Source: an uncultured virus (IMG/VR IMGVR_UViG_3300032136_000003) (lineage: Duplodnaviria; Heunggongvirae; Uroviricota; Caudoviricetes). From it: DNA of 64,000 nt. Under the pieces are notes generated by a model. It did no database searches. It was not told the DNA's origin and was given only the letters and a program-made list of their open reading frames with translations. Below, one piece after another: positions 13,419 to 62,149 of this stretch (position 1 is its first letter; each line of letters begins with the position of its first letter). Position numbers and translations under genes: made by a program. Location of the stretch: the IMG/VR virus record IMGVR_UViG_3300032136_000003. One strand, written 5' to 3'.

Positions 13419-13422
13419 CAAA

Positions 13423-33019: not shown

Positions 33020-33589
33020 ATGACTGAAGAACTTGTAAAGGGATCTGAATACACCACAGTAGATAGTTACGACCCGAAGGTTAAAGCAAAAGCTTATGAG
33101 TTGTTCCTAACTACAGACCTCAGCATGACCGACATAGCCATCGACCTGGGCATATCAAGCAAGGTGGTGGCTTCTTGGTCGCGTCAAGGTAAGTGGATGA
33201 ACCGTAAGAAGGAAGTCGAGATGGAGCTGTTCAAATCGGCCGAGTCTGACTACCGCGCTTTGGTCGTACAGAACAGAGTCCCAGTCGTCAAGAGACACCT
33301 CCGCATATCAGAGAAGGTGGAGGAGTCTATCGAGCGTGTGTTGGATGAGATCCTCAAGGACGAAGGTATACCCAACGACATGAAAGTCAAGCGTATGGCC
33401 GAGGCACTATCAGTTGTGTCTGCTGTGTCGGCCAGAGCCGCCGGAGTAACTGACCGCCCATTCTCAGATAATCTAGATGAAGACGGAAATAAGAAGGTGC
33501 CTCTCATCATGGTCAACGTGCAAGCGTCCGCTCCTCCCGGAGTAAAGATGGGTGAAGTGAAAGCCAAAGTTATAGACGTTAACCCCTAA
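33020..33589 (+). CDS. HTH protein, probable terminase small subunit
   Basis: SMTDIAIDLGISSKVVASW...W HTH followed by helical oligomerisation-like region. Confidence 0.55.
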   Translation: MTEELVKGSEYTTVDSYDPKVKAKAYELFLTTDLSMTDIAIDLGISSKVVASWSRQGKWMNRKKEVEMELFKSAESDYRALVVQNRVPVVKRHLRISEKVEESIERVLDEILKDEGIPNDMKVKRMAEALSVVSAVSARAAGVTDRPFSDNLDEDGNKKVPLIMVNVQASAPPGVKMGEVKAKVIDVNP

Positions 33590-33698: not shown

Positions 33699-36600
33699 TT
33701 ATGGGTTCCTGAATGCGTCCTCGATCCACTCTTTCTGTTGATCGGTTAGCTTCCTCGGCTTGCCGTACAAGAAGTTTCTGCTCTTCATACTCCTCTGAGT
33801 ACTGCGGATAGTTCCGTTGACTCTGAGGATGGCGCGACTCCACTTCTCTGTGGACACCTTGTCGTTACCGTCGATCGCTCTGTACAACTTAGCATACAAT
33901 TCTTTCATCACAACACCACGAGCTGACTTGAGAACTTTCTCTCCGTCATACCCATTACGGTTAGCCGCGTCAAGGATAGCTGGCCCAAGAGCTTCAAGGT
34001 TGGCTTTAACCTTTTTATTCTTGTATATGTTATCCGTTCCACCGGCCTTGGCCCACGTTTCAAGCAACCCGGTATATGCCTCAGTGGCTCCACGGAACGA
34101 TATACCTTTGCTCGTTGGACCGAGGAGCTGGAACGGGGCTGCGTCAGGATGCTTAGACCAGGCCAAGATACTGAACGGCATGAACTTCTGGACAGTGTAC
34201 CCAGCACGTGAACCCATGAAACCACCATCTTCACTCATGATCAACCCAGCAAGACCCATGTCCTTGAACTCAAGCTCCCAACCGCCACCACCAGCTGATT
34301 CTCCAGTAGCCTGTTCAATCGCCCAGCGGGCTGGTTGTGACAGCTTACCAGTAAGAGAACCCCAAGGAGTGTCAAGCCAGCGCTTTATTTCGTACGCCTG
34401 CTTACCCCAGCGGATGTATGTCCGACGCTCTCCAGTCGGGTATCCCTTATAGAATGGGAGGTTCCTTACCAGAGGAGTTATGTCAGCACTGAATTTTCTA
34501 CCCTCTTCGTTATTGAACATGAAAAATTCATCGTCATCATCAGGCGGTCCGAAGGCTCTACCTGCTGTGTATGCCAACGCCTGCACCATAGCAGGAACTA
34601 AAGTAATTACCCCCAGCATCATGGTAGGCCACCTGCGGAACATGATATGCTTGAACTCTTGATCAGACAAATATGTCTTGGAGAATGCTCCGGTCAATAA
34701 CTCTCCACCAGCAGCTCTCCAAGCCGATATCGACCAGTTAGGTGAGAACATCAGCAGGGAAAGGTTACGCCTCCAAGTAGGTGTCATATAAGACATCTTA
34801 TTCCAGTTCACTCCACCAAGTTCACCGTTGATGTAGTTCACATACGGAGCCATGTCCTCTTCAAAATCAAACGGCAGACCCGCTGCCTCAGCCTCAGCTT
34901 CCAATTTCTGTGCCATGAAGTGAGCGGCCCAGAGTTTGGCTGAGTTAAAGAAGCTGTCAAAGACTATCTCTGTTTGTTTCAGTGGTAGCTTGGCGATCAT
35001 CTCAAAGTTATCTGCTGCTTTCTTACCGATGTTGGTGAGAACCCAGTCAGTCATCTTCGCTATGTCCTTCTCAAGGATACCCCGCGGCAGACTTAATGGA
35101 TGAGATGAGTCACTATAAGTGATACCTATCTTGCGCCCTTTCTTCATTAGTTCTACCACGTACGGATGTTCGGACTTGATAGCTTCTTCAAACTCGAGAA
35201 GCATCTTAAGACCACCCTGCCTCCAGAATTCTCCATGAGACAAAGCAGTGAGCGATTCCAAACCAGCGATTGGGAAGAACAATGAGAACTGTAGAGCCCC
35301 CATCTTCATCCAAGCATTAGCGCGTTCGATTCCTTTGAGCGCCCCATATGGATCTTGCCAAGGAGTTTCAAATACGTGCTTCAAGATACCAGCCACCTCG
35401 CCACCAGCCATTGCCGCGTCTAGAATGTTTTCTCCTCCTCGGCCCCGGTGTATTGTATAGAACGCGTTGACTGATGGATAAGGCGACTCAACTCTTGTAT
35501 AGCCTTTATTTTTTACGAAATGATCCTGCACCATTTGATCTATGTTCCACTTAGCAGACTGTGTTTTGTCGAGAGGCTTACCCAAATAACGAGAAAGATT
35601 CTGAGCAACAGCTTCCCAAGTAACGTCCGTGACAAGATTCTCACCAGCGTAATTCAGGTTAGGAGACGGAATAACGAGAGGCGTGTTAGCCGCGTCTGTG
35701 GTAAGAAGCATTTGATTTATCATAGCCCTGTTAGCAGTACTCGTCATAATGTCAGACGCGTATTTGTGCAGCATTTCGTTAGCCCCAATGCTATCAGGTC
35801 TGTAACCACCAAGCATATAAGCATCTTCGTATGTGCTGTACTTACGAGTTTTTGTTCTATTGCTATACCCACGATTCTTGAAATCAACCATCATCTCACC
35901 AGTAGCTTTCGCCAGAGCGAGGGGATGCTCGAGCATATCCCCATCAGCAAGTTTGATAGGATCGTCGAGAGTCTTCTGAGCATTCGCTAAACGAGCTAGC
36001 AGTCTGTCATAAACTTCTCCGTGAATGAAGTTAGCCAAGTCAGCATAATCCATGTCAGGAGTTAGCCCGATGTCCTTGTGAGCTCCCGATCTGATCTCAG
36101 AGATAGCTTGACCTTCGTTCTTGAAGTGCAGTCCTTTGAGACCGAAAGCAAACTTGAGCATCTTGTATGAAGCGTCCGTGAGACTTCTCACCCTACCGCT
36201 TGCTTCTTTGGAAGCGGCTAAAGTTAACCTATGGGATTCCATGTTCTTCTCGAGGACGGCTTGGATGTTTTTCTCTAATGCAAGCCTGGCTGCTTTCTCT
36301 TCAGTACCCAAGAAACCAATACCCTTGTAATGGGTAACGTAGTTTTCGCGGTGCCACAGATAAGGTGCGTCAGGGCTCACGAACCAAGGAAGATCAGTTG
36401 TTACTTCCTTGTATAAGTTCTCCAAACGCTCCGACGTTTCACGCGCCAGTTCAGCTATATCCATGCGCTTAGGATCCCTACCAGCATCCAAAAGTTTCTG
36501 TCTATAAGAGGATGATCTAAAGTATTTGTCAATCATGCTAACAGGAACCATCCAGTTCATCTTGGTTGGGCGCCAGTTGCTATCTTCTTCCTGACCGTTA

Positions 36601-39600
36601 GCCAATGTTTCTGTTGCATCTGCCCTATAGTCAGCGTCACCGACGTTGATAGGAACCTTCTGATATATACCAATACCAGCAGCATGCAGGGCACGAGCTA
36701 CAGCTCTGTCTCGAGCCAGTTGCTCGGGACGGCTTTTTCCATCCATCTTAATACCAGCCATAACCTTTTTCTTGGCTTCAAGCAATTGGTCAGCTATTTC
36801 TTTCGGGAATACATCGTAGATACTCTTATCGTTCTCAGTGAATATACCTGTTATAACGTGCGCTACTTCCAGAGCAGCCTTGTGGTCTGTCTTGCCATCT
36901 TTGGTAGCGTGCTCCATGCTGGCCATTGCAGCCGCTTGGACTACTTCAGCAAGTTTTCTCTCGTCCTCAGTCAACTTATTTCTAGTCGCCCCACTTGCAT
37001 GAGTAGTACGAGTTAATTCAGGTCCCTCTCCCCTGTTACCCTTCAAATCTATTTTGGTTTTCTCTGTGATGAACGCACGTACTTGGCCCCCGTCACCAAG
37101 AGCCCATTCGTGAATGATCTTAGTATAGTGGGCACTCTCTTCAGCCAGTATAGCGCTCAGCTTACCCTGCTCTTTCATTAGAATCCTATGCAAAGCGTTA
37201 GATCCACCGATAAGAGAGGGAGCGATGATGCTGTTCAACACTTCAGCCGCATTCAATACAGACGCTGAAACAGTTCCATCAACGTAATCAGAGTCACCTG
37301 CTTCTTGAACCATGGCATATGGTGGTATTTTATGGGGGATGATATTGTGGTCACTCATCCTTGCTGTCTGCATTCTAGGTACGTTGTTCGCGGCATGCTC
37401 AAGCAGTGACAGGATGGTAGCGTTGTCCATACCATAAATCTTTTGGTCTTTAATAGCCATCAAGCTGGCACGAGCAGCTTCGAAAGTAGGTGCTGCTTTG
37501 TATCCAACCAATGCCTTATCCCAAGCAGACTTGATCTTGGCAGCTTCGATAGCAACCTTGTTCTTGCCTTCTTTCTTGGCATGCTCCATCGCAGCTTGTT
37601 CTTTCTCACCTAGCTTGATGGCTTTCTGTTTCATGTGCCATGAGACAAGTTGATCGCGACTTTTGGCCCTGTCAGCCCAGATGTTGGACGTACGTTTACC
37701 TGTGCCGTCGTATGTTCTATCAAAGATATCCATAGTGTTTTCGACGCGGGCACGAAGTCCAGCCATATCACTACGGCGGTACAGTTTGGAGTCTCTCAAC
37801 TCAAGCTGTGCCATAACGAAGTCACCCTCGTTTATGGCTTCTAACATATTCTTGAAACCTGGGAGAACGCTCCAATGATACAAGTCAACGATAGCGACCT
37901 GACGCTCAGTAGAAAGTTTGTCGAATCCAGCAATATCTTTACGGGCTTTTGCGATATACTTTTTGGTGAAGTGGTTGAGAAGCGCATCGTACTCTGCTTC
38001 TGTTATGCTCTTCTTACCGCTCTTCAGATCCTCGAATGACGCCCCGGTGATCTTCTCTATCTCAGCCTTGCGCTTATCAAACAATCTGATTCCCGGGCCG
38101 ATGGCTGGTGTACCTAGATCGTCGTACGCTGACATGTTACGTCCAGTACGCCCCTCGAAACTCGCGATACGTGCTGCAGCAGCTTGTTCCATATTGAGCT
38201 GTTTGACAGATTCAATTGGATTGCCTACCTTGCCACGAGCGTCCATCGTTGGGGTCACTGCCGTAGCAATCAGCCCAGCGGCTACGAGCTCCCGAATGGA
38301 AGCTGTAGTTTCGCCGGTAGCTGCGATCTCAACGCCCGATGGTGTGGGAGAAAACAGGGGTTGCTGTACCGGAGCTACCTGACGTGCAGGGGCTGCGGCC
38401 TCCTTTGTTGAGATCAAGGGTTTAAGTCTATTTGTATAAAGTCTTGTGTCTGCTTGAGATAATCCGCCAATACGATCGCGAGATATCTCACGGGTCAGGT
38501 CTCTCGTTATAAGTTCAGGTTTCCTGTTCTTATCTGTACGAATCCGATCGAATCTTTCAGCGTGGGCCTTGATCTCAGCATTGAAGAAACGCATATCGTT
38601 ACGCGCGCTTTCGGGCATCGGTCTTGGAATTGATTCACCGTAGTTACCGCGAACCCTTGCATATTCATAAGCAGCTCTCGATTTAGCTTGAACCGCTGAC
38701 TTAGCATCTACTATAGAAGCAGATGTTGTTCCCGGTCTCTCTATAATCTGAGGAGCTTCGGACACTACTTCCGAACGAGCTGTCTCCATATCCAACTCTC
38801 GGTACACACCGGGACGATGAAGCAATTTTACCTTGTCAGATGTTCTGGTTATTGCCGTGTAGTACCAACGACCTGCGTTCCAAGACGGGGCTACGTAGTC
38901 CTGATCCACGTAAACAGTTTCCCATTGGCTACCTTGAGACTTGTGGGCTGTAACTGCGTACCCGTAGGTAGCTATTACTAGCTTCTTGCTGACACCGAGT
39001 TTGCCCTCTTTGTCCTTTTTTATATCACCCTTATCCATTAATTTTATCAATGTTTCCCTCGATATTCCCTTCAGAATGTCTGGGTGATACAAGCTCGGTA
39101 TGTCCATGGCAGTTACAAAGTACATGGTCACGCGGCGGGGGCCTCCTTCTCCAAGGGTGTTTATCTGGGCGGTAACCCTCTTTACAGGTACTGTTATATC
39201 CTTCTTATACTTCCCAGACCCCTTGGTCGCCTGAACGGTGAATTCATACTCGTCGCTTTCTGATGCAGGCGCTTCGGTTACAGTGAACAACTCGCTGTTG
39301 GATACCCCCACAGCGTTGGCCACTCCCATAAGCCTATCTCCCTCGTTCAGCATGTTGTTCGCATCCGCCCCAAATAAGGCTTTCCTCGCGTACCTATTGT
39401 ACATATTCCGCTGTCTATTGGTGGCCGTTACCATAATCGTCTGTTCACTATCACGCTTCACGTCGTCCTGATAATCCCGAATGAATTTCTGATCCTGAGC
39501 CGTGTCATAGATCTTAAATTGTTCTGTACCAGCTCCTACGGGTATGGAGGGCACATTGTCTTGCCTCGTCTTAGTAGCCATTACCAAAACATCAGAGTCA

Positions 39601-42600: not shown

Positions 42601-45600
42601 AGAACATCAGATCCAGCACGACCCTTGACCATTGTGTCGACCGTGTATTCATCTGAATTGAGTTTCAGCGGAGCTGTGCGTTTCTTCATCGCCTCTTCTG
42701 TAGCTTCTGCCCCGTATATACCGAACTTCTTGTTAACATCCTCGATGCTCATTGTAGACCAAGTGGCTACATCTACATCGTTGTACGCTTCAATCATCAA
42801 TCTGACGACTCTATTAGATATACCTTCTTTGGTATCTGTATAGAAATCTCCGGCTACGATCATGTGAGTAGCGTCTCCGTCGTAGTCACCACCTGAGTAT
42901 TTGTAACGCTCATCGGCCAGACGAACCAAGTTAGACTTCTTGTTTCCTATGTTGTTTCTAAGACGAGCAACTTGTCCAGAGGCCAAATCCACAGAAGGAA
43001 TTCTAACGTCCAGTACGGTACCGCCAAGCAGAACCCACTCACCGTTGTCCAGCTGTCTTATCGCATCTCTGATTATAGACGCATCCAGTATTGGTCTGCC
43101 CTTGGAATCCAATTGAACTATAGGAGCTCCTGCGGGAATCCAAGGAATGCCATCTTCTTCTGTGAATGCAATTTCATTAGGCGCTGCTGCTCTACCCTCA
43201 GTCTCGCTTACAAATAAATCTGCATATGGAAGCCTCGCAGCTTTTCCTTCTGGAGATTCAAACTTGTAATAATCATTAGGGGTCTTGAGTAAAGCATCTC
43301 CATTGGACCTGTTAAAATTAAATCTGAAAGAGTTCTTCACAAAACCGATGATGTCTTCTCTACCCTCAAAAGCTTTACCTCTTGCACCATATATAGCAGG
43401 ACGTACGCCAGATATGTTACCATCCATAACGGCAGACATTACTACGTTATTCTTGCGGTCGATCAAACCATTGTCAGCTACGGTTATATTCTGGTTATAC
43501 TCAGTAAGTATGTTGGCTTTCTTCGCGGCAAACTCAGCGATATTCTGTCCCATGGCTCTACGTGTCTTGAACTCAACGCTACTGACAACAGCTCTAAGAA
43601 CCTGAGTCTTTGAGATAACATCCGGTGAAACGATGGAACGTGAGCCGTTGCGCAGGGATTCTGCCAACAGAGGGTCGCGGGCTTCCAATGCTTTGATAGC
43701 AACTTGAGTAAGTTCTTCTCTGGTAGGCATGAGTGATTGTCCCGCCACGTCAGAATATCTTGCCATCAAATCAATAATAGGTGTAGCCATTGCGTGAGGA
43801 ACGTCAAGCATGATAGCCTGTATCTGTCTCGCGGCTCTCTTGTACTTGGCGTATGTATCACCGTGCAATACCTGAGGAACCCTGAAGTTTTTCGGATTCA
43901 TTTCTTGTATAAATTTAGACACTCTAGGAGCCATCGCAGCAAGTAACTTGTCTCTGATAGCTTCGTAAGACAGCCCGTTGAGATCTTCTCCCGATTCAGT
44001 GAGGGCGTCGAGGCCCATCAGACCGTCTTTGTTTATAACGTCGCCAATACGATAGTCAGTTATGTTAGGAAGACCAAAAGATTCCTTGCTCGGAACCTTC
44101 ATGTTGGATGTGGGAACGATGAAATCGATACCGAAATGATCCATGAACTCTTTCAACGCTTTGTCTGTAGGACTTACAGTACCCTCAGCCCCTCTATTGC
44201 TGGCTGCGAGTTCTTCTATATTAACGCCGTTCATCTTATCCAGATGGGCCAAGTCTTTGAACGCGCCTGAAATCTGCATCTTCAATGAGTAAGCGGACTC
44301 AGTACTTCCGGCGTGTTCTTCACTAAGCATCTTTGCAAGTGCTCTACCTACATTGCCACTAAAGAAATACTGTCCATCGGAATTACCGTGAACGTCGTTC
44401 ATATCAACAAAGGCTACGCGCAAGTTGTCCCCGGATCTGTCTGGATCCAACTCTTTGAGCATATCTGGAAGTCCTTCAAGAGTGAGGGTAGCGCCAGTCA
44501 ACTGGTTACCATCACGCTTACTCTTTGTGGCGAGCATCTTCTGTACGATAGGAATGGATTCTAGATTCTCAGCTTCTGTAAGTGCTGTACTAAGTTCTCC
44601 CATAGTCATCAACAAGCTTTTGGATATCTTGCCAACTTCTGTGGACACGTAAGCCCGGAGCGATCCAGACATTGCTGTGTCAAACTTCAAACCATAATAA
44701 GCATAATGCATTTGCCTTGCGATATCGAAGGTCTTAATGGAGTCGACACCTTTTGCGTTGTTAAATTCTTTCTGCATATCACGCATATCAGCTGGAGATA
44801 TAAGCGCCGCAGCTTCGATACGCATTCTGTTCGGGTCGTTGTATTCTTTCTCATACAGCGAGACCAGTTCAGCGAGATTTGTTTTGGGCAACTTAAGCCA
44901 GTAACTGGAGTCCTTGTCACCCAAGCTTCCTGTGTGAACATAACCGTGTTTCCACATCATGTCACGTACAGTTGCGTACGCTACGGGATTCTTATACAAT
45001 TCAGAGGCTTTTATATGCGTAAATTTATTTATGGAAAACTCAGGTACGAATAAAATAGCTTCATGGAATGGTATATCTAACTCTTTTGCAAAAGCTTTGA
45101 CACCTTCCAAGAAACCATTGGTTCCCCGCAGAGGAGTAAATCCCTTGCCAGAATTAGCCTTGAACGTCGGTATGACCCAGTTGGGCATGTTGGCCGCATC
45201 AGCTATCAGCACCGCGTTTGGCTGTCCTTTGTTGGACTGCTGAACGCCTATCCAGTTATCGTTCATAGCCTTCGTTATGGCTTGACCGCGTTTGTACTGA
45301 CTCTCTGAAGTGATTAAATTCTTCTGTCGTGCTACGCCAAAATGATACTCAATGGTTTTGCTCAAACCAGATAAGCGTTTCAATCCGGTGGCATTCTTTG
45401 CGGCACTCGAGAACAAAGTCTTTGGAGCACCAGTCCAACGGGCCAAGAAATCAAAGTAGTCAGACGCCCAAGCAGGATCTTTTTTCAATCTACTTATGAC
45501 AGAGTCCTCGGTCAATCGTTCCCTCGGTGCGAGGTTAGCATCGTTCTCCACCTTTTCATACATAGCTACGATCTCACCCATTACCTTAGGTGAACCAATC

Positions 45601-48600
45601 AATCGATCCCTATGAGTCTCGGCACGTTTGATAAGCATAGGAGCAGCTGTCTTTGAGCCGGTGGTCTCTAATTCAATCTCACCATCTGTCATGTTCACCA
45701 CGCCTTGAGCCGCTGGAACGTAGACCCATGATCTGGCTACTCTAAGCTTGGCGTTCAGGTAACCCATGTTGACTCCCTTAGAGTTCTCGTCCTGCTCTAA
45801 GGCTACCTTGTTACTAACTATGACAATATCTTTGAAGGCTCGTTCTTCAGGAAGCATGTCCGGACTATCTTCACTGAGATATGCCTTCATGTTTTCTGTA
45901 CTTAACAAGGCCTTGTGCAGAGCATTCCAAGAAGACTCGGTCTGTGTCAAGCGCTCCAAAGCCCCGTAACCATATCCCGGGCCAAGTGTCTGTTCGAACA
46001 CGGCTGCTAAAGCACCCAGCGCTTCAACGTTTTTCATGTTCTGAGCATCTTGATCCTCGTGAGATCGTTCAATGGTTATACCTTCGTCAGCGGCTTTATC
46101 GTTCTTTTCTTGCACAAAGGAAGCGCCGGGCGCTACCGCAGTCTCGTCTGACTTGGCTTCCTTCTTCTTGTGATCAGCGATTCTGATAAGTTCTTCAACA
46201 GCCGACAAATCTCTGTACAATTCTTTAGCATACTCACCAGGAACTGGAGGTGCTTCGAGATTTCTTTCTATAGCCATGAAATCAGCGAGGAGCGCACCAG
46301 CTGCGGCTTTCTCTTCTGGAGTATTATCTGCAAATAAATTAGCTTCTGCTACGGCCTGCAAGGCTGCGAGTTTATCATCCGGAGGCGCAGCATTGATGAT
46401 TACCTTCGCCTGTTCTACTTTGGCTTCGATAGCACTCAAGACATCTTCAGAAGGTGCGATTGACGCGCTCCCACCGAATATTTTGTCAAGCAAATCAGCT
46501 GCTGCCTTGTTCTCAGCATCTTCTTTACCTACCAACGAGGCCGCGTTGTCAATAACCTTAGGGGCCGGGGCTTCTTTGGGAGCTACTTCAGCGATTTCAG
46601 GTGCTGGAGCTAAACCGACTTCAGGCTCCGGTTCTTGTGGAGCGGGTTTCTTGGCTTCGGCCTTTTTAGGCGCGGCCTTTTTAGGCGCGGCCTTTTTAGG
46701 CGCGGCCTTTTTAGGAGCTGCCTTTTTAGCTTTAGGGGCTTCGGCTTTAGGGGCTTCAGCTTTAGGAGCTTCAGCTTTAGGAGCCTGACCTCTGTCTCCC
46801 TGAGGAAGTAGTCCGGGCAACTGATCATCTAAATCAGGCTCTGATCTCTTGACTTGCTTCTTGGCTTCTGCCTTAGGCTTGCCAGCTTCAGCGTCTTTGG
46901 CTGCTTTTTCTACTGTAGGCTGTTGAGCATTCTTGACAGCAGCGGCCACTCTATCTGCTATAAGGGCTCTCGCCTGCACGTTCAGCAGAGGATTGGCGTT
47001 CCACATCGCTTCCGTAAGATCGACAGATGTGACGCCGTCACGGGATGTAAGCATACCCCAAACGCCAGCCATCTCTGATATGAAAGCATCGATACCTGGA
47101 ACGGTGGACAGGGCTTCTTTTAACTGTCCAATCTCTTTCCTGAAAGGAGCGTTGCCAGGAACTTGGTCATATCCCATAACGGCGTAGCCAAACAACTTTA
47201 TTGCGGCTTCTATGTTATCACTGTCTTTCAACAGTTTGATCAGCGCTTTATAATCCCCAGCATCTGAACGTTCACTTATAGCCCGGTAAGCGTTAGTTAT
47301 AAATCTTGCTACAGCAGGTGGGTTCTTGTACCTAGAAGAGTACCCATTAACAGCCAAGTCGAGGTTCTTAAGAGCGCTTTCTCCTGAGTCTTCCCACATA
47401 GAATAACCACCAGCATCTAAACTAGTAGCGATCTTGTTAGCGCTGTTCAACGCACCAATACTTATAAACCAATTACCATCAGAATCTTGTCTTCCGAGCA
47501 ACGTATCTTTAACATACTTCTCAGCTGCTTTATCTGTTGACCCAGACATAGCACCATAATCAAATAGATTAGCCAAAAGTCTTGGGTTCTTGCTGCTTAC
47601 TTGGTTAGGGAGAGTGAGTCTATAAGATCTATCAGCGTTTAAACGACCTTCGAAACCACGCTGGGATAACTTACTCCTAGCGTCTTCCAGAGACATTACA
47701 TTGGTGGCACTACTTATATCTGAAACAGAAGCCGCCCCGGCTGGGTTCCAACCCTGGATTCTAACCTGACCTTTTCCAGCAGGTTTTATCGTAACCACCT
47801 CGTCATTGCCGTCGGCATCTTGCTTGGTGTAGAACTCTCCAATTTTACCCTTTGCCACGAAATCTTGATATCTCTTCGCCGACTCTACAAGCTGATCGAC
47901 ACCGCTCAGCATACCATCCTTGCTTGCTTCATCTGTCAAACGTATGCCCTGAGATATAGCCAAATCCCAAGCCTGCTCGGAGAATGGATTGTTTATTATG
48001 AAATCAAGTTCTTCGGGGGTGAGATCAAATCCAGGCAGTTCATCCGGAGTCATGCGGACCCTGTCAAGGTCGGCTGGTTCTTTGCTATCTGCTACGGCCT
48101 GTGCTGATGCCAACGCATCAACATCCACTACACCAGCCCTCAGTCCATGCTTGCCCAGTACTGTAGCAATGGCCTCGCGGTTAGCATCAACAGCATCTGC
48201 GATCGGATTCTTCTGGTTGCGAAGAGCCCAGTAATGTCTTTCGGAATCCAAGGGAACGCGAACCAAAGGACTGTCGTTGTCTAATGTAAGAGCGTTTAAC
48301 TTATCTCTGAGATCTTCGTAAGACAAACCATTGAGATCTTCTCCTGATTCCTTGAGGGCATCGTACACACGTCCCTTGACTTGAAATGTTTTTCTAGCCA
48401 TAGCTATGGCTTCCATAACAGATTCTTTAGCCAATACAGCGGCTTGCTTTGTGGCGTCTTCTTCTGATACGCCTTTCTTCAGCATGTTGTCTTTCAGTCT
48501 CTGATTGACTTGCGTGTACATGCTAACAAAAGCAGTCTTACCATCGAACCCAATCTTTTGGTCAGCGGTACTGTACCGAGGGTGGTTGATGAACTGTCCT

Positions 48601-50321
48601 GTGGCAACCATTTCGAAAAGTGTCAACGCTGTGTCAGCTATCTTTCCGGGGATGCTGGTGGGACGAGATGCTTCTATCTCAGCGAGGCGAGCTATATCGG
48701 TGGCTATTTCATCAACACCAGCCATCTCACGACCACGCCTATCCAAGATAACTTGATTGTCACCTTCAACAAGCGTGCCCTCGCCAGCTGGGTTTGTTCC
48801 ACCGTATACTGATTTTACTAATCTTGTGTGTTCTGAGAGACTCTGTCCCGATAAAGCAAGATGCCCTTGCTGTGCCGCTGACTTAATGCCAAGCGGAATA
48901 GCAAAGGATATTGCTTCTACCATGAACTGCTCTTTGTCAGGCCACATGTTTGACCAAGCGTCGGCTAACTGGCCTCGGTCTGTATCACCCTCTAATCCTA
49001 AAAGTCCTCTAGTAAATCCACCTACACGCTCTTCAAGTATTTCTTCTGCCCAGCCGTCGTAACCAGCTTTAGCCCAACGCTTTGCAACTGTGTCTAAGTC
49101 GCCCCCAGCACTCAACCAATCCACGGCCATTTTAACGCCGGCAGAAGTCGCCAGCTTTTCTTTCAAATAAGCCACTTTTCCCAGAGGCCCTTTGACTGCG
49201 GTGCTTGCTGCCTTTCCGGCAACGTCTGCGGCTTCCGTGCCAGCCTTTCCTAATACGCGGTCAAACATCTTAGCAAGACTTAACCCGCCCTCGCGTCCAG
49301 TGAGTTTACCCAATTTACCAGCCACAGGCCCTACCAACGCCCCACTGATCATTTCACCACTGGCTTCTGAATAATACTCAATCCAACGGTCAGCCATGGC
49401 CATCATCTGGGCGCTGCGCACTGTAAGGTCATCGCCCTCTATAGCAGCTTGTATCAATCTTTCCTCAGCACCGCGGGACGCCATAGCGTCTCTACCCATA
49501 GCCGTGTTAGCTAGCGCGTTGACGCCTGTATCGGCGAGCGCTGTGAATGTTCCCACCTCAGCAAGTTTTATAGCACCCTTAGTCAATGCCGCGGTGTACT
49601 CAGCGCCTGCGGCTTTTGTCAAATATTTAAGGGCTGCTTTGGCCGCTTTGTTGGACGCTTTCTTTGTCAAACCTTTTTTGACTCCAGCACGTAGCGCACC
49701 GCCGGTGACTTTGAAAATACCAGCGGCCAAACCACCGCCGGATCCAACAGCCGTTGTTACGGGGTCTGGTGATATAGCTCCGATAGCAGTACCTGCAGCG
49801 GTGTAAGCTGCGATCTCGGCCATAAAACCAGGCATGGCCCTTGTTACATCACCAACCTTGCCGCCCAAAGTAGCCTGGCCTTTGCGCTCGGCATCCGCGA
49901 GATACAACTGGGCATATAAGGCCTCCTGATCGCTGATAGGAGACCCCTCATCAAGTTTCCGGAACGTATTCGCTATATTACGCATCTCCCTAATAGGGAT
50001 CAGGCTGCCCACAATGTCACCTACAAAAGGCGCGTCAGCGCTTGAAATATCAGATAGAGCTTCCACGAAACCTCTCGGACCTCTTTGCTGGCTCTTAAGA
50101 ACATCTAGATATTCCTTGCCGCCGTCGAGAGCTGATATCTGATTAGGGGATAGGTGGACTCCGCTGAGCATACGCACGTTATCTGGTGAGGCCACCCACT
50201 TGTCAGAGATCGCCGAAGGCAATTGGGGCGCTGCGTAAGCATCTTCTGAAGATAGAGGAATCGAATTGTCGACGGGCACGGCACTAGAACTATCGAGATA
50301 AGAACTCAAATCTATGGGCAT
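33699..50321 (-). CDS. 5540-aa virion protein: two-barrel RNA polymerase + RecD/Dda-like helicase + lysozyme-like domain
   Basis: SDG (about 44375), RIP (about 43000), GGDYDGD (DYDGD at 42873-42887); GYAGTGKTT, IIIDESSMV, VGD.YQ..PV, AHKSQGS, YTAITR; FEG...DD.G..AIGPG; AAGGAG SD. Confidence 0.85.
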   Translation of the reverse strand: MPIDLSSYLDSSSAVPVDNSIPLSSEDAYAAPQLPSAISDKWVASPDNVRMLSGVHLSPNQISALDGGKEYLDVLKSQQRGPRGFVEALSDISSADAPFVGDIVGSLIPIREMRNIANTFRKLDEGSPISDQEALYAQLYLADAERKGQATLGGKVGDVTRAMPGFMAEIAAYTAAGTAIGAISPDPVTTAVGSGGGLAAGIFKVTGGALRAGVKKGLTKKASNKAAKAALKYLTKAAGAEYTAALTKGAIKLAEVGTFTALADTGVNALANTAMGRDAMASRGAEERLIQAAIEGDDLTVRSAQMMAMADRWIEYYSEASGEMISGALVGPVAGKLGKLTGREGGLSLAKMFDRVLGKAGTEAADVAGKAASTAVKGPLGKVAYLKEKLATSAGVKMAVDWLSAGGDLDTVAKRWAKAGYDGWAEEILEERVGGFTRGLLGLEGDTDRGQLADAWSNMWPDKEQFMVEAISFAIPLGIKSAAQQGHLALSGQSLSEHTRLVKSVYGGTNPAGEGTLVEGDNQVILDRRGREMAGVDEIATDIARLAEIEASRPTSIPGKIADTALTLFEMVATGQFINHPRYSTADQKIGFDGKTAFVSMYTQVNQRLKDNMLKKGVSEEDATKQAAVLAKESVMEAIAMARKTFQVKGRVYDALKESGEDLNGLSYEDLRDKLNALTLDNDSPLVRVPLDSERHYWALRNQKNPIADAVDANREAIATVLGKHGLRAGVVDVDALASAQAVADSKEPADLDRVRMTPDELPGFDLTPEELDFIINNPFSEQAWDLAISQGIRLTDEASKDGMLSGVDQLVESAKRYQDFVAKGKIGEFYTKQDADGNDEVVTIKPAGKGQVRIQGWNPAGAASVSDISSATNVMSLEDARSKLSQRGFEGRLNADRSYRLTLPNQVSSKNPRLLANLFDYGAMSGSTDKAAEKYVKDTLLGRQDSDGNWFISIGALNSANKIATSLDAGGYSMWEDSGESALKNLDLAVNGYSSRYKNPPAVARFITNAYRAISERSDAGDYKALIKLLKDSDNIEAAIKLFGYAVMGYDQVPGNAPFRKEIGQLKEALSTVPGIDAFISEMAGVWGMLTSRDGVTSVDLTEAMWNANPLLNVQARALIADRVAAAVKNAQQPTVEKAAKDAEAGKPKAEAKKQVKRSEPDLDDQLPGLLPQGDRGQAPKAEAPKAEAPKAEAPKAKKAAPKKAAPKKAAPKKAAPKKAEAKKPAPQEPEPEVGLAPAPEIAEVAPKEAPAPKVIDNAASLVGKEDAENKAAADLLDKIFGGSASIAPSEDVLSAIEAKVEQAKVIINAAPPDDKLAALQAVAEANLFADNTPEEKAAAGALLADFMAIERNLEAPPVPGEYAKELYRDLSAVEELIRIADHKKKEAKSDETAVAPGASFVQEKNDKAADEGITIERSHEDQDAQNMKNVEALGALAAVFEQTLGPGYGYGALERLTQTESSWNALHKALLSTENMKAYLSEDSPDMLPEERAFKDIVIVSNKVALEQDENSKGVNMGYLNAKLRVARSWVYVPAAQGVVNMTDGEIELETTGSKTAAPMLIKRAETHRDRLIGSPKVMGEIVAMYEKVENDANLAPRERLTEDSVISRLKKDPAWASDYFDFLARWTGAPKTLFSSAAKNATGLKRLSGLSKTIEYHFGVARQKNLITSESQYKRGQAITKAMNDNWIGVQQSNKGQPNAVLIADAANMPNWVIPTFKANSGKGFTPLRGTNGFLEGVKAFAKELDIPFHEAILFVPEFSINKFTHIKASELYKNPVAYATVRDMMWKHGYVHTGSLGDKDSSYWLKLPKTNLAELVSLYEKEYNDPNRMRIEAAALISPADMRDMQKEFNNAKGVDSIKTFDIARQMHYAYYGLKFDTAMSGSLRAYVSTEVGKISKSLLMTMGELSTALTEAENLESIPIVQKMLATKSKRDGNQLTGATLTLEGLPDMLKELDPDRSGDNLRVAFVDMNDVHGNSDGQYFFSGNVGRALAKMLSEEHAGSTESAYSLKMQISGAFKDLAHLDKMNGVNIEELAASNRGAEGTVSPTDKALKEFMDHFGIDFIVPTSNMKVPSKESFGLPNITDYRIGDVINKDGLMGLDALTESGEDLNGLSYEAIRDKLLAAMAPRVSKFIQEMNPKNFRVPQVLHGDTYAKYKRAARQIQAIMLDVPHAMATPIIDLMARYSDVAGQSLMPTREELTQVAIKALEARDPLLAESLRNGSRSIVSPDVISKTQVLRAVVSSVEFKTRRAMGQNIAEFAAKKANILTEYNQNITVADNGLIDRKNNVVMSAVMDGNISGVRPAIYGARGKAFEGREDIIGFVKNSFRFNFNRSNGDALLKTPNDYYKFESPEGKAARLPYADLFVSETEGRAAAPNEIAFTEEDGIPWIPAGAPIVQLDSKGRPILDASIIRDAIRQLDNGEWVLLGGTVLDVRIPSVDLASGQVARLRNNIGNKKSNLVRLADERYKYSGGDYDGDATHMIVAGDFYTDTKEGISNRVVRLMIEAYNDVDVATWSTMSIEDVNKKFGIYGAEATEEAMKKRTAPLKLNSDEYTVDTMVKGRAGSDVLAIAAKSGTTVRLLNAAGAYLMDTENPIIVATDDGETLVIRRSFRDVEAIRTDRNAWNREQLGMYLASSGIVNLDVDDPKLRQVADMGLTALVQSMLIPAIAWDADTLNPEAGGDYNHKVEFEAAANRAISLMKTLASSELIQAVDKASNDGAQMLTPDGKQKSVATLMYDIAENMLTDEERKRLDEAKITAVAEVLDDPEDVKKAEKQATKDFLKNKSQFAGIIRLYEASVDIRKMGQINDLMFGSPKLESLGVIMNSLKTASKWVNEDILRDGGEITFVDKGEDSALAAPVRVLASKLKDTLPSALYSATDNGSMLYSWKQSASDSARHGDVSIETHLKNVAGLIALRHMVNNSGISDLNPMFNASRLNDLIAEYPENTFLQLVTESREVTNALRLQPLYEGSAGIQLTEPELLRVQKDFDALPRELQLELFINGVASYGSVAGTYIGSFVPFTGGPESQFRKDLTKAELSVHNDWFRNMDIEGSDWAAALAGTMAVSNVTAYNRRRIAATAMFSDLGLNFVKGSGIDAGNVIYLESEAGAKSGSEPDLDSQNLDSEGDPFTSKKANKNLNAIIQEKYDTTSIFDASEKVAQLLGVTPKGKAAVAVTSRANLEDGISGQAAAALDAMEFEATPEFFEAPEGLDLDADVGVEPDLEGEFEPPPTGSVFGRGEAAPKAVAGGMSDALRAIASAPQEGEEALDQGDVAALLPELTVTDWNLLSEAAGQPVNEENFFDVADNAVVLGKLRRAEAAPKDPELARAEQVNQEAEDILKADADSAIGSGEAPAAAVNQATAPVEKLNPTREEADALDSNILTARRDTLLPTVEQAEALQAIAEFLKSDAAEAELVGYAGTGKTTMMENVVRHQQYLDPSVSVSIWALSNQATNIVRGKMEANGVSADISTIHKGLFGEKDPETDKWVPRGLTEGSFIIIDESSMVDKDLYETIKSETAKVGARVLYVGDNYQIEPVGAPSFVLHVNKSPIPSTFKTTLSGVMRQASDSDVLVMATKTRQDNVPSIPVGAGTEQFKIYDTAQDQKFIRDYQDDVKRDSEQTIMVTATNRQRNMYNRYARKALFGADANNMLNEGDRLMGVANAVGVSNSELFTVTEAPASESDEYEFTVQATKGSGKYKKDITVPVKRVTAQINTLGEGGPRRVTMYFVTAMDIPSLYHPDILKGISRETLIKLMDKGDIKKDKEGKLGVSKKLVIATYGYAVTAHKSQGSQWETVYVDQDYVAPSWNAGRWYYTAITRTSDKVKLLHRPGVYRELDMETARSEVVSEAPQIIERPGTTSASIVDAKSAVQAKSRAAYEYARVRGNYGESIPRPMPESARNDMRFFNAEIKAHAERFDRIRTDKNRKPELITRDLTREISRDRIGGLSQADTRLYTNRLKPLISTKEAAAPARQVAPVQQPLFSPTPSGVEIAATGETTASIRELVAAGLIATAVTPTMDARGKVGNPIESVKQLNMEQAAAARIASFEGRTGRNMSAYDDLGTPAIGPGIRLFDKRKAEIEKITGASFEDLKSGKKSITEAEYDALLNHFTKKYIAKARKDIAGFDKLSTERQVAIVDLYHWSVLPGFKNMLEAINEGDFVMAQLELRDSKLYRRSDMAGLRARVENTMDIFDRTYDGTGKRTSNIWADRAKSRDQLVSWHMKQKAIKLGEKEQAAMEHAKKEGKNKVAIEAAKIKSAWDKALVGYKAAPTFEAARASLMAIKDQKIYGMDNATILSLLEHAANNVPRMQTARMSDHNIIPHKIPPYAMVQEAGDSDYVDGTVSASVLNAAEVLNSIIAPSLIGGSNALHRILMKEQGKLSAILAEESAHYTKIIHEWALGDGGQVRAFITEKTKIDLKGNRGEGPELTRTTHASGATRNKLTEDERKLAEVVQAAAMASMEHATKDGKTDHKAALEVAHVITGIFTENDKSIYDVFPKEIADQLLEAKKKVMAGIKMDGKSRPEQLARDRAVARALHAAGIGIYQKVPINVGDADYRADATETLANGQEEDSNWRPTKMNWMVPVSMIDKYFRSSSYRQKLLDAGRDPKRMDIAELARETSERLENLYKEVTTDLPWFVSPDAPYLWHRENYVTHYKGIGFLGTEEKAARLALEKNIQAVLEKNMESHRLTLAASKEASGRVRSLTDASYKMLKFAFGLKGLHFKNEGQAISEIRSGAHKDIGLTPDMDYADLANFIHGEVYDRLLARLANAQKTLDDPIKLADGDMLEHPLALAKATGEMMVDFKNRGYSNRTKTRKYSTYEDAYMLGGYRPDSIGANEMLHKYASDIMTSTANRAMINQMLLTTDAANTPLVIPSPNLNYAGENLVTDVTWEAVAQNLSRYLGKPLDKTQSAKWNIDQMVQDHFVKNKGYTRVESPYPSVNAFYTIHRGRGGENILDAAMAGGEVAGILKHVFETPWQDPYGALKGIERANAWMKMGALQFSLFFPIAGLESLTALSHGEFWRQGGLKMLLEFEEAIKSEHPYVVELMKKGRKIGITYSDSSHPLSLPRGILEKDIAKMTDWVLTNIGKKAADNFEMIAKLPLKQTEIVFDSFFNSAKLWAAHFMAQKLEAEAEAAGLPFDFEEDMAPYVNYINGELGGVNWNKMSYMTPTWRRNLSLLMFSPNWSISAWRAAGGELLTGAFSKTYLSDQEFKHIMFRRWPTMMLGVITLVPAMVQALAYTAGRAFGPPDDDDEFFMFNNEEGRKFSADITPLVRNLPFYKGYPTGERRTYIRWGKQAYEIKRWLDTPWGSLTGKLSQPARWAIEQATGESAGGGGWELEFKDMGLAGLIMSEDGGFMGSRAGYTVQKFMPFSILAWSKHPDAAPFQLLGPTSKGISFRGATEAYTGLLETWAKAGGTDNIYKNKKVKANLEALGPAILDAANRNGYDGEKVLKSARGVVMKELYAKLYRAIDGNDKVSTEKWSRAILRVNGTIRSTQRSMKSRNFLYGKPRKLTDQQKEWIEDAFRNP
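46647..46784 (-). repeat. 15-nt coding tandem repeats (KAEAP / KKAAP)
   Basis: Encodes (PKAEA)3 then (KKAAP)4 in the giant ORF. Confidence 0.85.
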
Positions 50322-53404: not shown

Positions 53405-53417
53405 ATCTATCTCCTAA

Positions 53418-54635: not shown

Positions 54636-54643
54636 AATATCTC

Positions 54644-56191: not shown

Positions 56192-56200
56192 GCTGTACCC

Positions 56201-57901: not shown

Positions 57902-57910
57902 AATAAATCC

Positions 57911-58522: not shown

Positions 58523-58542
58523 GAGTTTAATCCCCTATCTAG

Positions 58543-59016: not shown

Positions 59017-59020
59017 CACA

Positions 59021-60580: not shown

Positions 60581-60581
60581 G

Positions 60582-61478: not shown

Positions 61479-61497
61479 AATTACTCCTATTTAAAGT

Positions 61498-61549
61498 GGT
61501 CCTTGGAGCCTTGGCTATAAAGAGACGGAAGTCGCCAAGACTCCAGGAC
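61498..61549 (-). other. intergenic hairpin
   Basis: GGTCCTTGGAGCCTTGGC / GCCAAGACTCCAGGACC. Confidence 0.5.
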
Positions 61550-61560
61550 CGAGGACTAAA

Positions 61561-62094: not shown

Positions 62095-62114
62095 AATATT
62101 ATACTCCTTTAAAT

Positions 62115-62143: not shown

Positions 62144-62149
62144 GATTGA

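What the first reader, a model, noticed from the sequence alone, without database searches (positions are those of the whole stretch)
33699..50321. 5540-aa virion protein fusing a single-chain two-barrel RNA polymerase, an SF1 helicase and a lysozyme
Seen: about aa 1950-2500 carry SDG, following lysines (SLKMQ, LDKM), RIP and GGDYDGD; 38820-40130 encodes a full RecD/Dda-like motif set; 37720-38200 encodes a T4-lysozyme-like fold (E..D present, usual TIG reads AIG). Large N- and C-terminal regions are unassigned. Established: DxDGD with an upstream RxP is the two-barrel polymerase active site, and crAss-like phages inject single-chain enzymes of this type. Inference: one ejected machine that breaches peptidoglycan, unwinds or pulls DNA and transcribes early genes. 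I do not know this domain combination from a characterised phage.
Basis: partly seen in the sequence, partly recalled or inferred. Interest (0 to 1): 0.8.

Follow-up and report, generated by a model that had tools for sequence, protein, structure and literature searches.

The report
Giant phage ejection protein with polymerase
An uncultured phage encodes one real 5,540-residue, cysteine-free protein that joins a cell-wall-cutting lysozyme, a DNA helicase and what is most likely a particle-borne RNA polymerase to a module found in phage DNA-ejection proteins, a rare variant of a design known from crAss-like and N4-like phages.

Summary

**Firm:**
- A RecD/Dda-type SF1 helicase, aa 3397-3834 (Pfam and PHROGs).
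- A T4-type lysozyme, aa ~4045-4190. A 3-sequence profile hits the T4 gp5 lysozyme at 2.8e-10, and the fold search returns T4 lysozyme.

**Likely, fold not shown:** the two-barrel RNA polymerase.
- No Pfam, PHROGs or PDB sequence hit, and the AlphaFold model failed (pLDDT 36).
- RxP and DxDGD are invariant in the only two homologues among 1.84 billion representatives.
- The catalytic segment aligns without gaps to RIPNQ...GSDFDID of crAss-like phage phi14:2 gp66. It is the best of 5,486 positions and no shuffle out of 200 reached it.
- Bridge-helix-like and trigger-loop-like motifs follow in order.
- The beta-like barrel signal barely exceeds background.

**New here:**
- The C-terminal core matches ~1,900-aa proteins that lie beside adaptor, head-closure and DNA-ejection genes in podovirus contigs.
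- All four family members have no cysteine.

**Novelty:** helicase fusions to crAss polymerases are recurrent (11 of 120 listed homologues), so that part is not new. The lineage, the canonical glycine in DxDGD and the lysozyme-plus-ejection-module fusion are. I class it as a new variant of a known kind.

The parts
33699..50321 (-). Giant ORF, 5,540 aa, no cysteine
46122..50321 (-). N-terminal region, aa 1-1400, unassigned. It holds an Ala/Gly-rich stretch (aa ~160-400) and an Ala/Pro/Lys-rich linker.
   Evidence: No Pfam or PHROGs hit; composition
46639..46728 (-). 15-nt tandem repeats encoding KKAAP-type repeats (aa ~1198-1228). Probably variable in copy number.
   Evidence: The database copy P0002 has the same ends but is 5 aa shorter; attributing that to this repeat is my inference.
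41160..46103 (-). Module shared with both homologues, aa 1407-3054. Candidate single-chain two-barrel RNA polymerase.
   Evidence: BLAST 22-24% identity to P0003 and P0004; alignment A1
44235..44282 (-). Two invariant lysines, K2014 and K2029, candidate beta-like barrel. Same 15-residue spacing as PLKGVY...YLKYSQ of gp66.
   Evidence: Statistically marginal.
42855..43019 (-). Catalytic segment aa 2435-2489: RIP (2440-2442), then 36 residues, then DYDGD (2479-2483, window 42873-42887)
42567..42659 (-). NSD...G(K/R)xxG...A motif, aa ~2555-2585. Counterpart of the gp66 bridge helix (gp66 1529-1559).
   Evidence: Invariant columns; helix limits from bioRxiv 10.1101/2020.03.07.982082
42327..42395 (-). 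VDDxK motif, aa 2643-2665. Counterpart of VDxAKDP in the gp66 trigger loop (gp66 1598-1636).
40134..41021 (-). Acidic linker, aa 3101-3396 (net charge about -37)
38820..40133 (-). SF1B RecD/Dda-like helicase, aa 3397-3834
   Evidence: AAA_30 3.5e-22, AAA_19 1.3e-14, UvrD_C_2 1e-11; phrog_325 Dda-like 4.3e-55; motifs
37752..38189 (-). T4-type (GH24) lysozyme domain, aa ~4045-4190. Has E4056 and D4067/D4068; A4073 in place of Thr.
33702..37724 (-). Conserved C-terminal module, aa 4200-5540. 37% identical to P0003 and P0005.
34374..35393 (-). Core shared with ~1,900-aa ejection-locus proteins of podovirus contigs, aa 4977-5316. Includes a conserved hydrophobic segment, aa 5233-5251 (window 34569-34625).

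Best explanation
The gene encodes a giant polyvalent ejection protein of an uncultured phage from a very rare lineage.

**Domains, N to C.**
1. An unassigned region of ~1,400 aa.
2. A ~1,650-aa module that is most likely a single-chain two-barrel RNA polymerase. It is a distant relative of the virion polymerase gp66 of crAss-like phages, but with the canonical DxDGD.
3. An acidic linker.
4. An intact SF1B helicase.
5. A T4-type lysozyme.
6. A ~1,340-aa module shared with large proteins in the ejection-protein loci of podoviruses.

**Proposed working (inferred, not shown).**
1. The protein is packed in the capsid and leaves through the tail, unfolded. The complete lack of cysteine fits this.
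2. The C-terminal module, with its hydrophobic segment, helps build or anchor the channel through the envelope.
3. The lysozyme opens the peptidoglycan locally.
4. The helicase and polymerase reach the cytoplasm with the leading DNA end.
5. The helicase supplies single-stranded template; gp66 transcribes only single-stranded or denatured DNA in vitro.
6. The polymerase transcribes the early genes of the plus-strand arm without host polymerase. Either motor may help draw in the genome.
For: **Shown: helicase.**, motifs.

**Shown: lysozyme.**
- Profile A2 hits the T4 gp5 lysozyme domain (7cn7) at 2.8e-10 and T4 lysozyme at ~1e-6, over positions 7-151 of 170.
- The model has pLDDT 70.6. Almost all of the 50 Foldseek rows shown are T4 lysozyme or T4-lysozyme fusion constructs, TM 0.45-0.56.

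**Polymerase.**
- The exhaustive HMMER search finds only 2 homologues. RxP, DxDGD, two lysines, NSD and VDDxK are invariant in 3 of 3 sequences.
- The only hhalign hit to gp66 aligns RIP...GGDYDGD to RIPNQ...GSDFDID, with the same 39-residue R-to-D distance.
- The 55-aa catalytic block of a 76-sequence crAss profile scores best at aa 2435 out of 5,486 positions: 35.6 against a null maximum of 8.0 +/- 6.1, reached by 0 of 200 shuffles.
- hhalign on the beta'/bridge sub-region scores 26.0 against 15.7 +/- 3.0, reached by 0 of 100 shuffles. The other 14 real windows of this family score 17.6 or less.
- Four of the 5 hhalign hits are collinear. The block-chain score is reached by 16 of 1,000 shuffles.
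- With our family HMM, 16 of 60 best hits on crAss polymerases fall on their DFDxD site.
- Language-model lead: a viral RdRP (PF05183) cluster at 0.90.
- Homologue P0003 carries an HExxH region similar to the gp65 partner of gp66, E 3.3e-6.
- Eleven of the 120 listed crAss polymerase homologues carry an SF1 helicase. It lies C-terminal to the polymerase core in all 9 where the core was located.

**Ejection.**
- The C-terminal core matches the 1,897-aa protein of L002 (5e-7) and the 1,881-aa protein of L003 (8.5e-4).
- Those proteins lie after 'DNA ejection' phrog_598 genes in both loci; L002 also has an SU10-type adaptor and a head-closure Hc3 gene upstream. The L003 protein carries ART-PolyVal.
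- Cysteine counts are 0 of 5,540, 4,216, 2,608 and 2,361 residues in the family. They are 0 of 1,897 and 1 of 1,881 in those relatives, and 1-2 in gp65-gp67.
- The gene is the last of a tightly packed minus-strand arm. A related contig, L004, keeps the same convergent junction.
Against: **Polymerase.**
- No double-psi barrel was seen: the AlphaFold model on the 3-sequence alignment has pLDDT 36.5.
- There was no hit in Pfam or PHROGs or in PDB sequences by single sequence or profile.
- A crAss HMM scores our proteins no better than shuffled or reversed ones.
- All hhalign E-values are weak, 0.013 to 0.56.
- Only 1 of 12 crAss blocks beats all shuffles on P0001. The catalytic block does not find the site in P0003 or P0004, whose spacing differs by one residue.
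- The beta-like barrel score of 20.9 is close to the 18.8 of an unrelated real window.
- The top hhalign hits to E. coli beta' and beta are not at the catalytic motifs.

**Virion status.**
- None of the 13 neighbouring minus-arm ORFs matches a capsid, portal or tail family; the only hit is endonuclease VII. The three ORFs tried found no match in 50,697 phage records and another three found none in the PDB.
- There are no virion proteomics.
- P0001 has no HExxH peptidase, so how or whether it is processed is unknown.
Confidence: 0.7

Rival explanations
1. The protein is an ejected polyvalent protein with a helicase and a lysozyme, but the DxDGD region is not a polymerase. It would be another Mg-binding or structural module, and the likeness to gp66 would be a short convergent motif.
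For: HMMER sees nothing. The fold was not obtained. The beta-like barrel signal is marginal. There is no alignment to the E. coli beta' catalytic site. The ESM recognition value is low, 1411.
Against: The match covers 55 residues without a gap and is the best of 5,486 positions. Further collinear motifs fall on the gp66 bridge helix and trigger loop. Two separate sub-regions exceed all shuffles. The partner-protein link to gp65 and the same polymerase-then-helicase order as in crAss fusions also speak against it.
Confidence: 0.17
2. The ORF is a polyprotein. It is cut into separate polymerase, helicase, lysozyme and ejection proteins before or after packaging, so the domains do not work as one tethered machine. 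This is compatible with the domain calls.
For: Iyer et al. 2017 propose that polyvalent proteins are processed by their zincin peptidase domains (PMC5512222, passages). Homologue P0003 has such an HExxH domain. Long low-complexity and acidic linkers separate the modules. phi14:2 encodes its block as three separate proteins.
Against: P0001 itself has no HExxH motif. No prohead protease was recognised in the window. N4 gp50 and the P23-45 tape-measure-polymerase fusion are reported as large fusion proteins (N4 recalled; PMC10770324 abstract and passages).
Confidence: 0.3
3. The protein is a tail tape-measure-like or tail-internal protein, as in Thermus phage P23-45 where a two-barrel polymerase is fused to the tape measure, rather than a capsid-packed ejection protein of a podovirus.
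For: P23-45 gp96 is a 5,002-residue tape measure with an N-terminal virion polymerase (PMC10770324, abstract and passages). Lysozyme-type domains and hydrophobic segments also occur in tape measures (recalled).
Against: Relatives of the C-terminal core lie after 'DNA ejection' genes in both loci, and in L002 also after SU10-type adaptor and head-closure genes. They do not lie in a siphovirus tail module. No tail-tube or chaperone family is seen nearby.
Confidence: 0.1
4. The protein is not packaged. It would be an intracellular replication and transcription factor made after infection.
For: No direct evidence of packaging. The neighbouring genes have no recognised structural families.
Against: A lysozyme domain whose best matches are the tail-associated T4 gp5. 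An ejection-locus C-terminal module. No cysteine. The gene lies on the arm opposite the replication genes.
Confidence: 0.07

Closest known systems
Cellulophaga phage phi14:2 gp66, the virion RNA polymerase of crAss-like phages, with its neighbours gp65 and gp67 (bioRxiv 10.1101/2020.03.07.982082; record NC_021806.1)
   Same: Giant, cysteine-poor proteins encoded in the late region. The RIP-x36-D[FY]DxD catalytic segment has identical spacing. Bridge-helix and trigger-loop motifs follow in the same order. Two lysines lie 15 residues apart upstream. Homologue P0003 shares a zincin region with gp65. Many gp66 homologues carry a C-terminal SF1 helicase.
   Different: Not detectable by HMMER. The fourth motif position is Gly, as in cellular enzymes, where crAss phages have Ile or Val. 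The connector between the putative barrels is ~115 aa longer. One polypeptide stands in place of three genes. It has a lysozyme and an ejection-type C-terminal module, which do not resemble gp65 or gp67. No crAss structural families were found in the window.
N4-like virion RNA polymerase gp50 and phage-type polyvalent proteins (Iyer et al. 2017, PMC5512222)
   Same: A huge late-gene protein delivered with the DNA. It is fused to lysozyme, zincin and other effector domains. The genome has two convergent arms and carries rIIA/rIIB and PolA.
   Different: The N4 polymerase is T7-like and single-subunit. No such family is found here. No N4 hallmark structural families were detected.
Thermus phage P23-45 gp96, a tape-measure-fused two-barrel virion polymerase (PMC10770324)
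   Same: A ~5,000-residue protein that joins a two-barrel polymerase to a DNA-delivery protein. It was proposed to transcribe while the DNA enters.
   Different: There the polymerase is N-terminal to a siphovirus tape measure. Here the polymerase is internal and the delivery module is of a podovirus ejection-locus type. No sequence comparison was run.
T4 gp5 tail-associated lysozyme and T4 lysozyme (GH24)
   Same: Profile match at 2.8e-10 over the whole domain. The catalytic Glu and Asp are kept. The fold search returns T4 lysozyme.
   Different: Thr26 is replaced by Ala. The domain is embedded in a 5,540-aa chain. Pfam PF00959 was not hit by the single sequence.
~1,900-aa proteins of IMG/VR contigs L002 and L003 (uncharacterised ejection-locus proteins)
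   Same: They share the core matching aa 4977-5316, are almost free of cysteine, and carry swappable effector domains such as ART-PolyVal.
   Different: Only 22-23% identity. No polymerase, helicase or lysozyme family was recognised in them.

Membership tests
Two-barrel (double-psi beta-barrel) RNA polymerases | DxDxD metal-binding motif in the beta'-like barrel | tested here: met
   DYDGD at aa 2479-2483. DADGD and DDDGD stand at the same column in the 2 homologues.
Two-barrel (double-psi beta-barrel) RNA polymerases | Conserved RxP strand about 35-40 residues upstream of DxDxD | tested here: met
   RIP/RTP/RIP are invariant. The R-to-D distance is 39, 38 and 40 residues, against 39 in gp66. 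The figure of 35 for E. coli beta' is recalled.
Two-barrel (double-psi beta-barrel) RNA polymerases | Second, beta-like barrel with conserved lysines | tested here: inconclusive
   K2014 and K2029 are invariant, with the gp66-like 15-residue spacing. Block scores are not above shuffles. hhalign gives 20.9 against 18.8 for an unrelated window.
Two-barrel (double-psi beta-barrel) RNA polymerases | Two double-psi beta-barrel folds facing one active site | tested here: inconclusive
   The AlphaFold model of aa 1880-3050 has mean pLDDT 36.5 and is unusable.
Two-barrel (double-psi beta-barrel) RNA polymerases | Mg-dependent, template-dependent RNA synthesis | not testable with these tools
   Needs biochemistry.
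crAss-like virion RNA polymerase (gp66 orthologues) | Sequence-profile membership | tested here: not met
   A crAss core HMM of 76 sequences scores the family no better than shuffled or reversed controls. Only weak hhalign hits were found.
crAss-like virion RNA polymerase (gp66 orthologues) | DFD[IV]D with Ile or Val at the fourth position | tested here: not met
   Gly at the fourth position in 3 of 3 family members. The crAss rule is from bioRxiv 10.1101/2020.03.07.982082.
SF1B RecD/Dda-like helicases | AAA_30/AAA_19 core plus UvrD_C_2, above the Pfam cut-offs | tested here: met
   79.5, 55.0 and 44.9 bits against cut-offs of 27, 25.1 and 27.4. phrog_325 at 4.3e-55.
SF1B RecD/Dda-like helicases | Intact motifs I, II, III, V and VI | tested here: met
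   GYAGTGKTT 3424, DESSM 3508, GDNYQ 3536, HKSQG 3793, TAITR 3822. The motif names are recalled.
GH24 T4-type lysozyme | Homology over the whole domain | tested here: met
   Profile A2 against 7cn7 at 2.8e-10, positions 7-151 of 170. Foldseek returns T4 lysozyme, TM ~0.5, E ~1e-2, with none at E <= 0.001. The single sequence gave no Pfam hit.
GH24 T4-type lysozyme | Catalytic Glu11 / Asp20 / Thr26 triad | tested here: inconclusive
   E4056 and D4067/D4068 are present and Thr is replaced by A4073. P0003 has E, D and T. Activity is untested.
Phage-type polyvalent proteins (Iyer et al. 2017) | Many effector domains in one late-gene protein, with a lysozyme, delivered with the DNA | tested here: met
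   Domain set; ejection-locus relatives. Delivery itself is not testable here.
Phage-type polyvalent proteins (Iyer et al. 2017) | Zincin metallopeptidase for processing | tested here: not met
   No HExxH in P0001. It is present in homologue P0003 at aa 2562.
N4-like virion RNA polymerase | T7-like single-subunit polymerase domain | tested here: not met
   No such Pfam or PHROGs family in any of the four overlapping pieces.

The most novel reading that the evidence does not exclude
This rare family is a separate, deep branch of single-chain two-barrel polymerases outside Crassvirales. It keeps the canonical glycine of cellular and RNAi polymerases and sits between crAss virion polymerases and the QDE-1/YonO clade. 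The whole ejection channel, peptidoglycan cutter, helicase and polymerase stay as one ~610-kDa cysteine-free chain that spans the envelope. DNA entry, unwinding and first transcription would then be physically coupled in a short-tailed phage.
Probability: 0.25. Interest if true: 0.85.

Novelty: new variant of a known kind. Interest (0 to 1): 0.66.

Why it matters
Virion-carried two-barrel polymerases have been studied in crAss-like phages and in Thermus phage P23-45. If this protein is one, three things follow.
- Such enzymes also occur in a lineage that no phage database entry resembles.
- Here the catalytic motif has the canonical glycine.
- The enzyme can be welded to a podovirus ejection-protein chassis together with a lysozyme and a helicase.

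That would give a single-gene system for studying how a phage couples envelope penetration, DNA unwinding and host-independent early transcription. It would also give a new reference point for the proposed phage origin of eukaryotic RNAi polymerases. The complete lack of cysteine across ~15,000 residues of the family, and in related ejection proteins, is a simple and testable signature of proteins that travel through the tail.

Tried and rejected
**Searches with the polymerase region that found nothing.**
- tblastn against 50,697 phage records.
- Megablast of the late arm against the same records.
- PDB sequence search with the single sequence and with the profile.
- Pfam at E up to 10 on small pieces.
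- IMG/VR and JGI metagenome pattern scans with alignment A1: 414 and 597 pattern matches, none confirmed.

**Structure.** AlphaFold on the polymerase module gave pLDDT 36.5, so no fold search was run on it.

**Weak or negative comparisons.**
- A crAss HMM against our family showed no signal over controls.
- hhalign against E. coli beta' and beta gave top hits away from the catalytic motifs.
- The C-terminal module against phi14:2 gp65 and gp67 showed nothing.

**Late-arm ORFs.**
- Three of them against phages by tblastn, no match.
- Three against the PDB, nothing meaningful.
- Neighbours of L002 and L003 against our late ORFs, nothing below E 0.01 except the giant protein.

**Ideas rejected.**
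- I considered feeding AlphaFold a mixed alignment of our family with crAss sequences. I rejected it as circular.
- The 36-nt element present in three copies looked like a tRNA T-arm, but ARAGORN and Rfam call no tRNA there.

**Not available or not used.**
- No whole genome is held for this window.
Full report
**The object**

The window is phage DNA.
- The plus strand of 1-33,600 carries small early-type ORFs and then replication genes. These are a helicase, a DUF2800 exonuclease, rIIA/rIIB, an RNA ligase, PolA and a DUF5906 primase-helicase-like protein.
- A tightly packed minus-strand arm runs from 63,811 down to 33,699.
- GC skew flips at about 33 kb.
- No whole genome is held. The protein collection has the same protein on an 83,508-bp contig.
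- The finding is the last gene of the minus arm: 33699-50321, 5,540 aa, with an AAGGAG ribosome-binding site.

**Helicase**

- Pfam gives AAA_30 (3.5e-22), AAA_19 (1.3e-14) and UvrD_C_2 (1e-11).
- PHROGs gives phrog_325, 'Dda-like helicase' (4.3e-55).
- Together they cover aa 3397-3834.
- Motifs I, II, III, V and VI are intact.

**Lysozyme**

- The single sequence hits nothing in Pfam or the PDB.
- A 3-sequence profile (A2: this protein, P0003, P0005) hits the T4 gp5 tail-lysozyme domain at 2.8e-10. It hits T4 lysozyme at about 1e-6. The matches cover positions 7-151 of 170.
- An AlphaFold model reached pLDDT 70.6 and pTM 0.70.
- Foldseek gave no match at E <= 0.001. Almost all of the 50 rows shown are T4 lysozyme or T4-lysozyme fusion constructs, with E 0.0075-0.03 and TM 0.45-0.56.
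- E4056 and D4067/D4068 are present.
- This part is confirmed as a domain. Activity is untested.

**Polymerase: what failed**

- No Pfam or PHROGs hit.
- No PDB sequence hit, by single sequence or profile.
- No match in 50,697 phage records.
- No relatives in IMG/VR or JGI metagenomes by pattern scan.
- The AlphaFold model on the 3-sequence alignment was unusable, pLDDT 36.5.
- An HMM of 76 crAss polymerase cores scored our family no better than reversed or shuffled versions.
- hhalign against E. coli beta' and beta did not pick the catalytic motifs.

**Polymerase: what supports it**

- *Homologues.* An exhaustive HMMER search of 1.84 billion representatives found only two, P0003 (4,216 aa) and P0004 (2,608 aa, partial).
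- *Invariant columns in their alignment with our protein.* These include DG, two lysines (K2014 and K2029 in our protein) and TSxxKxP. They also include RxP, G-x-D-x-DGDA, SN, NSD, G..G...A, VDDxK and a C-terminal FDxLPxxxQLEL.
- *Comparison with phi14:2 gp66.* The gene was fetched from NC_021806.1. hhalign's single hit aligns VRIPS...SGGDYDGD to YRIPNQ...TGSDFDID without a gap between R and the first D, 39 residues in both. The E-value is only 0.17.
- *Catalytic block.*
  - I built a 76-sequence profile of the gp66 core from 120 listed homologues.
  - Its 55-column catalytic block scores best at aa 2435 out of all 5,486 positions of the protein. The score is 35.6 against a shuffled maximum of 8.0 +/- 6.1, reached by 0 of 200 shuffles.
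  - The same ungapped block misses the site in P0003 and P0004, whose spacing is 38 and 40.
  - Of 12 blocks, only this one beats all shuffles on P0001.
- *hhalign on sub-regions.*
  - Beta'/bridge: 26.0 against 15.7 +/- 3.0, reached by 0 of 100 column shuffles.
  - Beta-like: 20.8 against 13.0 +/- 2.2, reached by 0 of 100.
- *Control with other real windows of this family.*
  - The beta' signal stands out, 25.5-25.9 against 17.6 or less in 14 other windows.
  - The beta-like signal does not, 20.9 against 18.8.
- *Collinearity.* Four of the 5 alternative hhalign hits are collinear. A collinear block-chain score is reached by 16 of 1,000 shuffles, or 19 of 1,000 local shuffles.
- *Our family HMM against crAss polymerases.* It places 16 of 60 best hits on their DFDxD site. 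Scores are near zero and barely above those of reversed sequences.
- *Bridge helix and trigger loop.*
  - The motifs G(K/R)xxG...A and VDDxK fall where gp66 has GKSGVG and VDNAKDP.
  - Those lie inside the gp66 bridge helix (1529-1559) and trigger loop (1598-1636). The limits come from passages of bioRxiv 10.1101/2020.03.07.982082.
  - In P0003 and P0004 the best whole-protein match of the bridge block lies 94 and 92 residues after their DxDGD. Each match alone is not significant.
- *Language-model lead.* A viral cluster carrying RdRP PF05183 scored 0.90 with 164 shared features, at low recognition.

I read this as remote but real homology of the beta'-side catalytic core to crAss-type virion polymerases. 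The second barrel is inferred.

The family is not a member of the crAss orthologous group. Profile membership fails, and the fourth motif position is Gly, not Ile or Val.

**Links to the crAss transcription block**

- phi14:2 encodes gp65, gp66 and gp67 side by side, 1,421, 2,180 and 1,797 aa.
- P0003 has an HExxH region similar to gp65 residues 241-330. The E-value is 3.3e-6 in a four-sequence search.
- Eleven of the 120 listed gp66 homologues match our helicase, E 1e-22 to 8e-5. In the 9 where the polymerase core was located, the helicase is C-terminal to it, the same order as here.
- None of the 120 shows a lysozyme family among its precomputed Pfam domains.

**C-terminal module and virion status**

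- Residues 3989-5540 are 37.6% identical to P0003. Residues 4586-5540 are 36.7% identical to P0005.
- A scan of IMG/VR with alignment A3 found two distant relatives, L002 and L003, at 22-23% identity.
- Their proteins of 1,897 and 1,881 aa match our aa 4977-5314 (5e-7) and aa 5074-5316 (8.5e-4). This region includes a conserved hydrophobic segment, aa 5233-5251.
- Both lie just downstream of a 'DNA ejection' protein (phrog_598). In L002 an SU10-type adaptor and a head-closure Hc3 gene lie further upstream. The L003 protein carries ART-PolyVal.
- This is the layout of podovirus ejection proteins carrying polyvalent effector domains, as described by Iyer et al. 2017 (PMC5512222, passages read).
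- An ESM lead points to a cluster in which 63% of members carry LPD38. [quoted passage not shown]
- All four family members lack cysteine entirely, 0 of 14,725 residues in total. The L002 and L003 proteins have 0 and 1. gp65-gp67 have 1-2 each.
- L004 is the contig of P0003 and is labelled as a Phycisphaerae MAG. It keeps the same convergent junction with homologues of our ORFs 33020-33589 (3.2e-48) and 32128-32958.
- Against virion status: none of the 13 minus-arm neighbours matches a structural family. There are no proteomics.

**Mechanism**

The steps are given under Best explanation. Only the domain identities are shown. Packaging, ejection, channel formation, helicase-assisted template opening and early transcription are inferred. 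The inference is by analogy with gp66, which transcribes single-stranded or denatured DNA and is translocated with the DNA. It also draws on N4 gp50 and P23-45 gp96.

**Novelty**

- My literature searches found no paper describing a two-barrel polymerase joined to a lysozyme and an ejection module. They were, on PMC open access and bioRxiv only.
- The alignments of 23 polymerase families in PMC10770324 could not be read, so prior cataloguing cannot be excluded.
- Earlier notes of this scan on other genomes already report giant crAss-type polymerase-helicase fusions. My own one search agrees.
- The verdict is therefore a new variant of a known kind, in a very rare lineage.

Noticed in passing
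window 33699-50321 (protein); also P0003, P0004, P0005, L002:5888-11581, L003:2463-8105: No cysteine at all in 5,540 aa, nor in the three homologues (4,216, 2,608 and 2,361 aa). The distant ejection-locus relatives have 0 and 1. phi14:2 gp65-gp67 have 1-2 each.
   Followed up: partly
window 43944-44010 and 48297-48363: A 67-nt direct repeat, 85% identical, lies inside the giant gene. It encodes the same peptide (ESGEDLNGLSYE..RDKL) at aa 658 and aa 2109. The second copy lies between the two putative barrels.
   Followed up: partly
window 46639-46728: Five tandem 15-nt units encode KKAAP-type repeats. The database copy of the protein has the same ends and is 5 aa shorter, so the repeat number may vary (my inference).
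   Followed up: partly
window 6139-6211 (+): A tRNA gene that ARAGORN reads with a four-base anticodon (tgcg) and cannot name. Rfam tRNA scores 33.5 bits against a cut-off of 29.
   Followed up: partly
window 1421-1456, 1517-1552, 2102-2137 (+): Three copies of a 36-nt element near the left end: a short hairpin (CAGG..CCTG, T-arm-like) followed by CTGTTGCTTTC(A/G)TTTT. No tRNA is called there. They are candidates for early promoters or terminators.
   Followed up: partly
window 1183-1222, 1837-1876, 4308-4347, 5112-5151 (+): Four copies of a conserved GC-rich hairpin with a T-run and shared flanks (AACTTA...). They look like terminators spaced through the early region.
   Followed up: no
window 11964-14709 (+): Seven copies of GAAAGCGAGGAAGGATGA at gene junctions. 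This is a shared ribosome-binding and stop-start signal of a run of small genes.
   Followed up: no
window 11987-12511 (+): A 174-aa ORF built from about fifteen 15-nt tandem units. It matches pentapeptide-repeat families weakly: Pentapeptide_4 at 4e-8, which is below the Pfam cut-off.
   Followed up: no
window 2415-4310 (+): A 631-aa ORF with 216-nt internal repeats and PEPK-rich linkers. It gave only weak PHROGs hits, one of them to a 'virion structural protein' family.
   Followed up: no
window 50403-63811 (-): Thirteen tightly packed ORFs of 147-826 aa, of which only one (endonuclease VII, 55712-56191) matches any family. Three were tried against phage records and three against the PDB, with nothing found. 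The structural genes of this phage are unrecognisable by sequence.
   Followed up: partly
L003:2463-8105 and L002:5888-11581: Large ejection-locus proteins share the C-terminal core but carry other cargo domains. L003 has ART-PolyVal (4.9e-17). L002 has a weak GGDEF-like hit (4e-4, below the cut-off).
   Followed up: partly
P0003 aa ~2558-2641 (L004): The homologue has an HExxH zincin-like region where our protein has the helicase, so the middle cargo of this family is swappable.
   Followed up: partly
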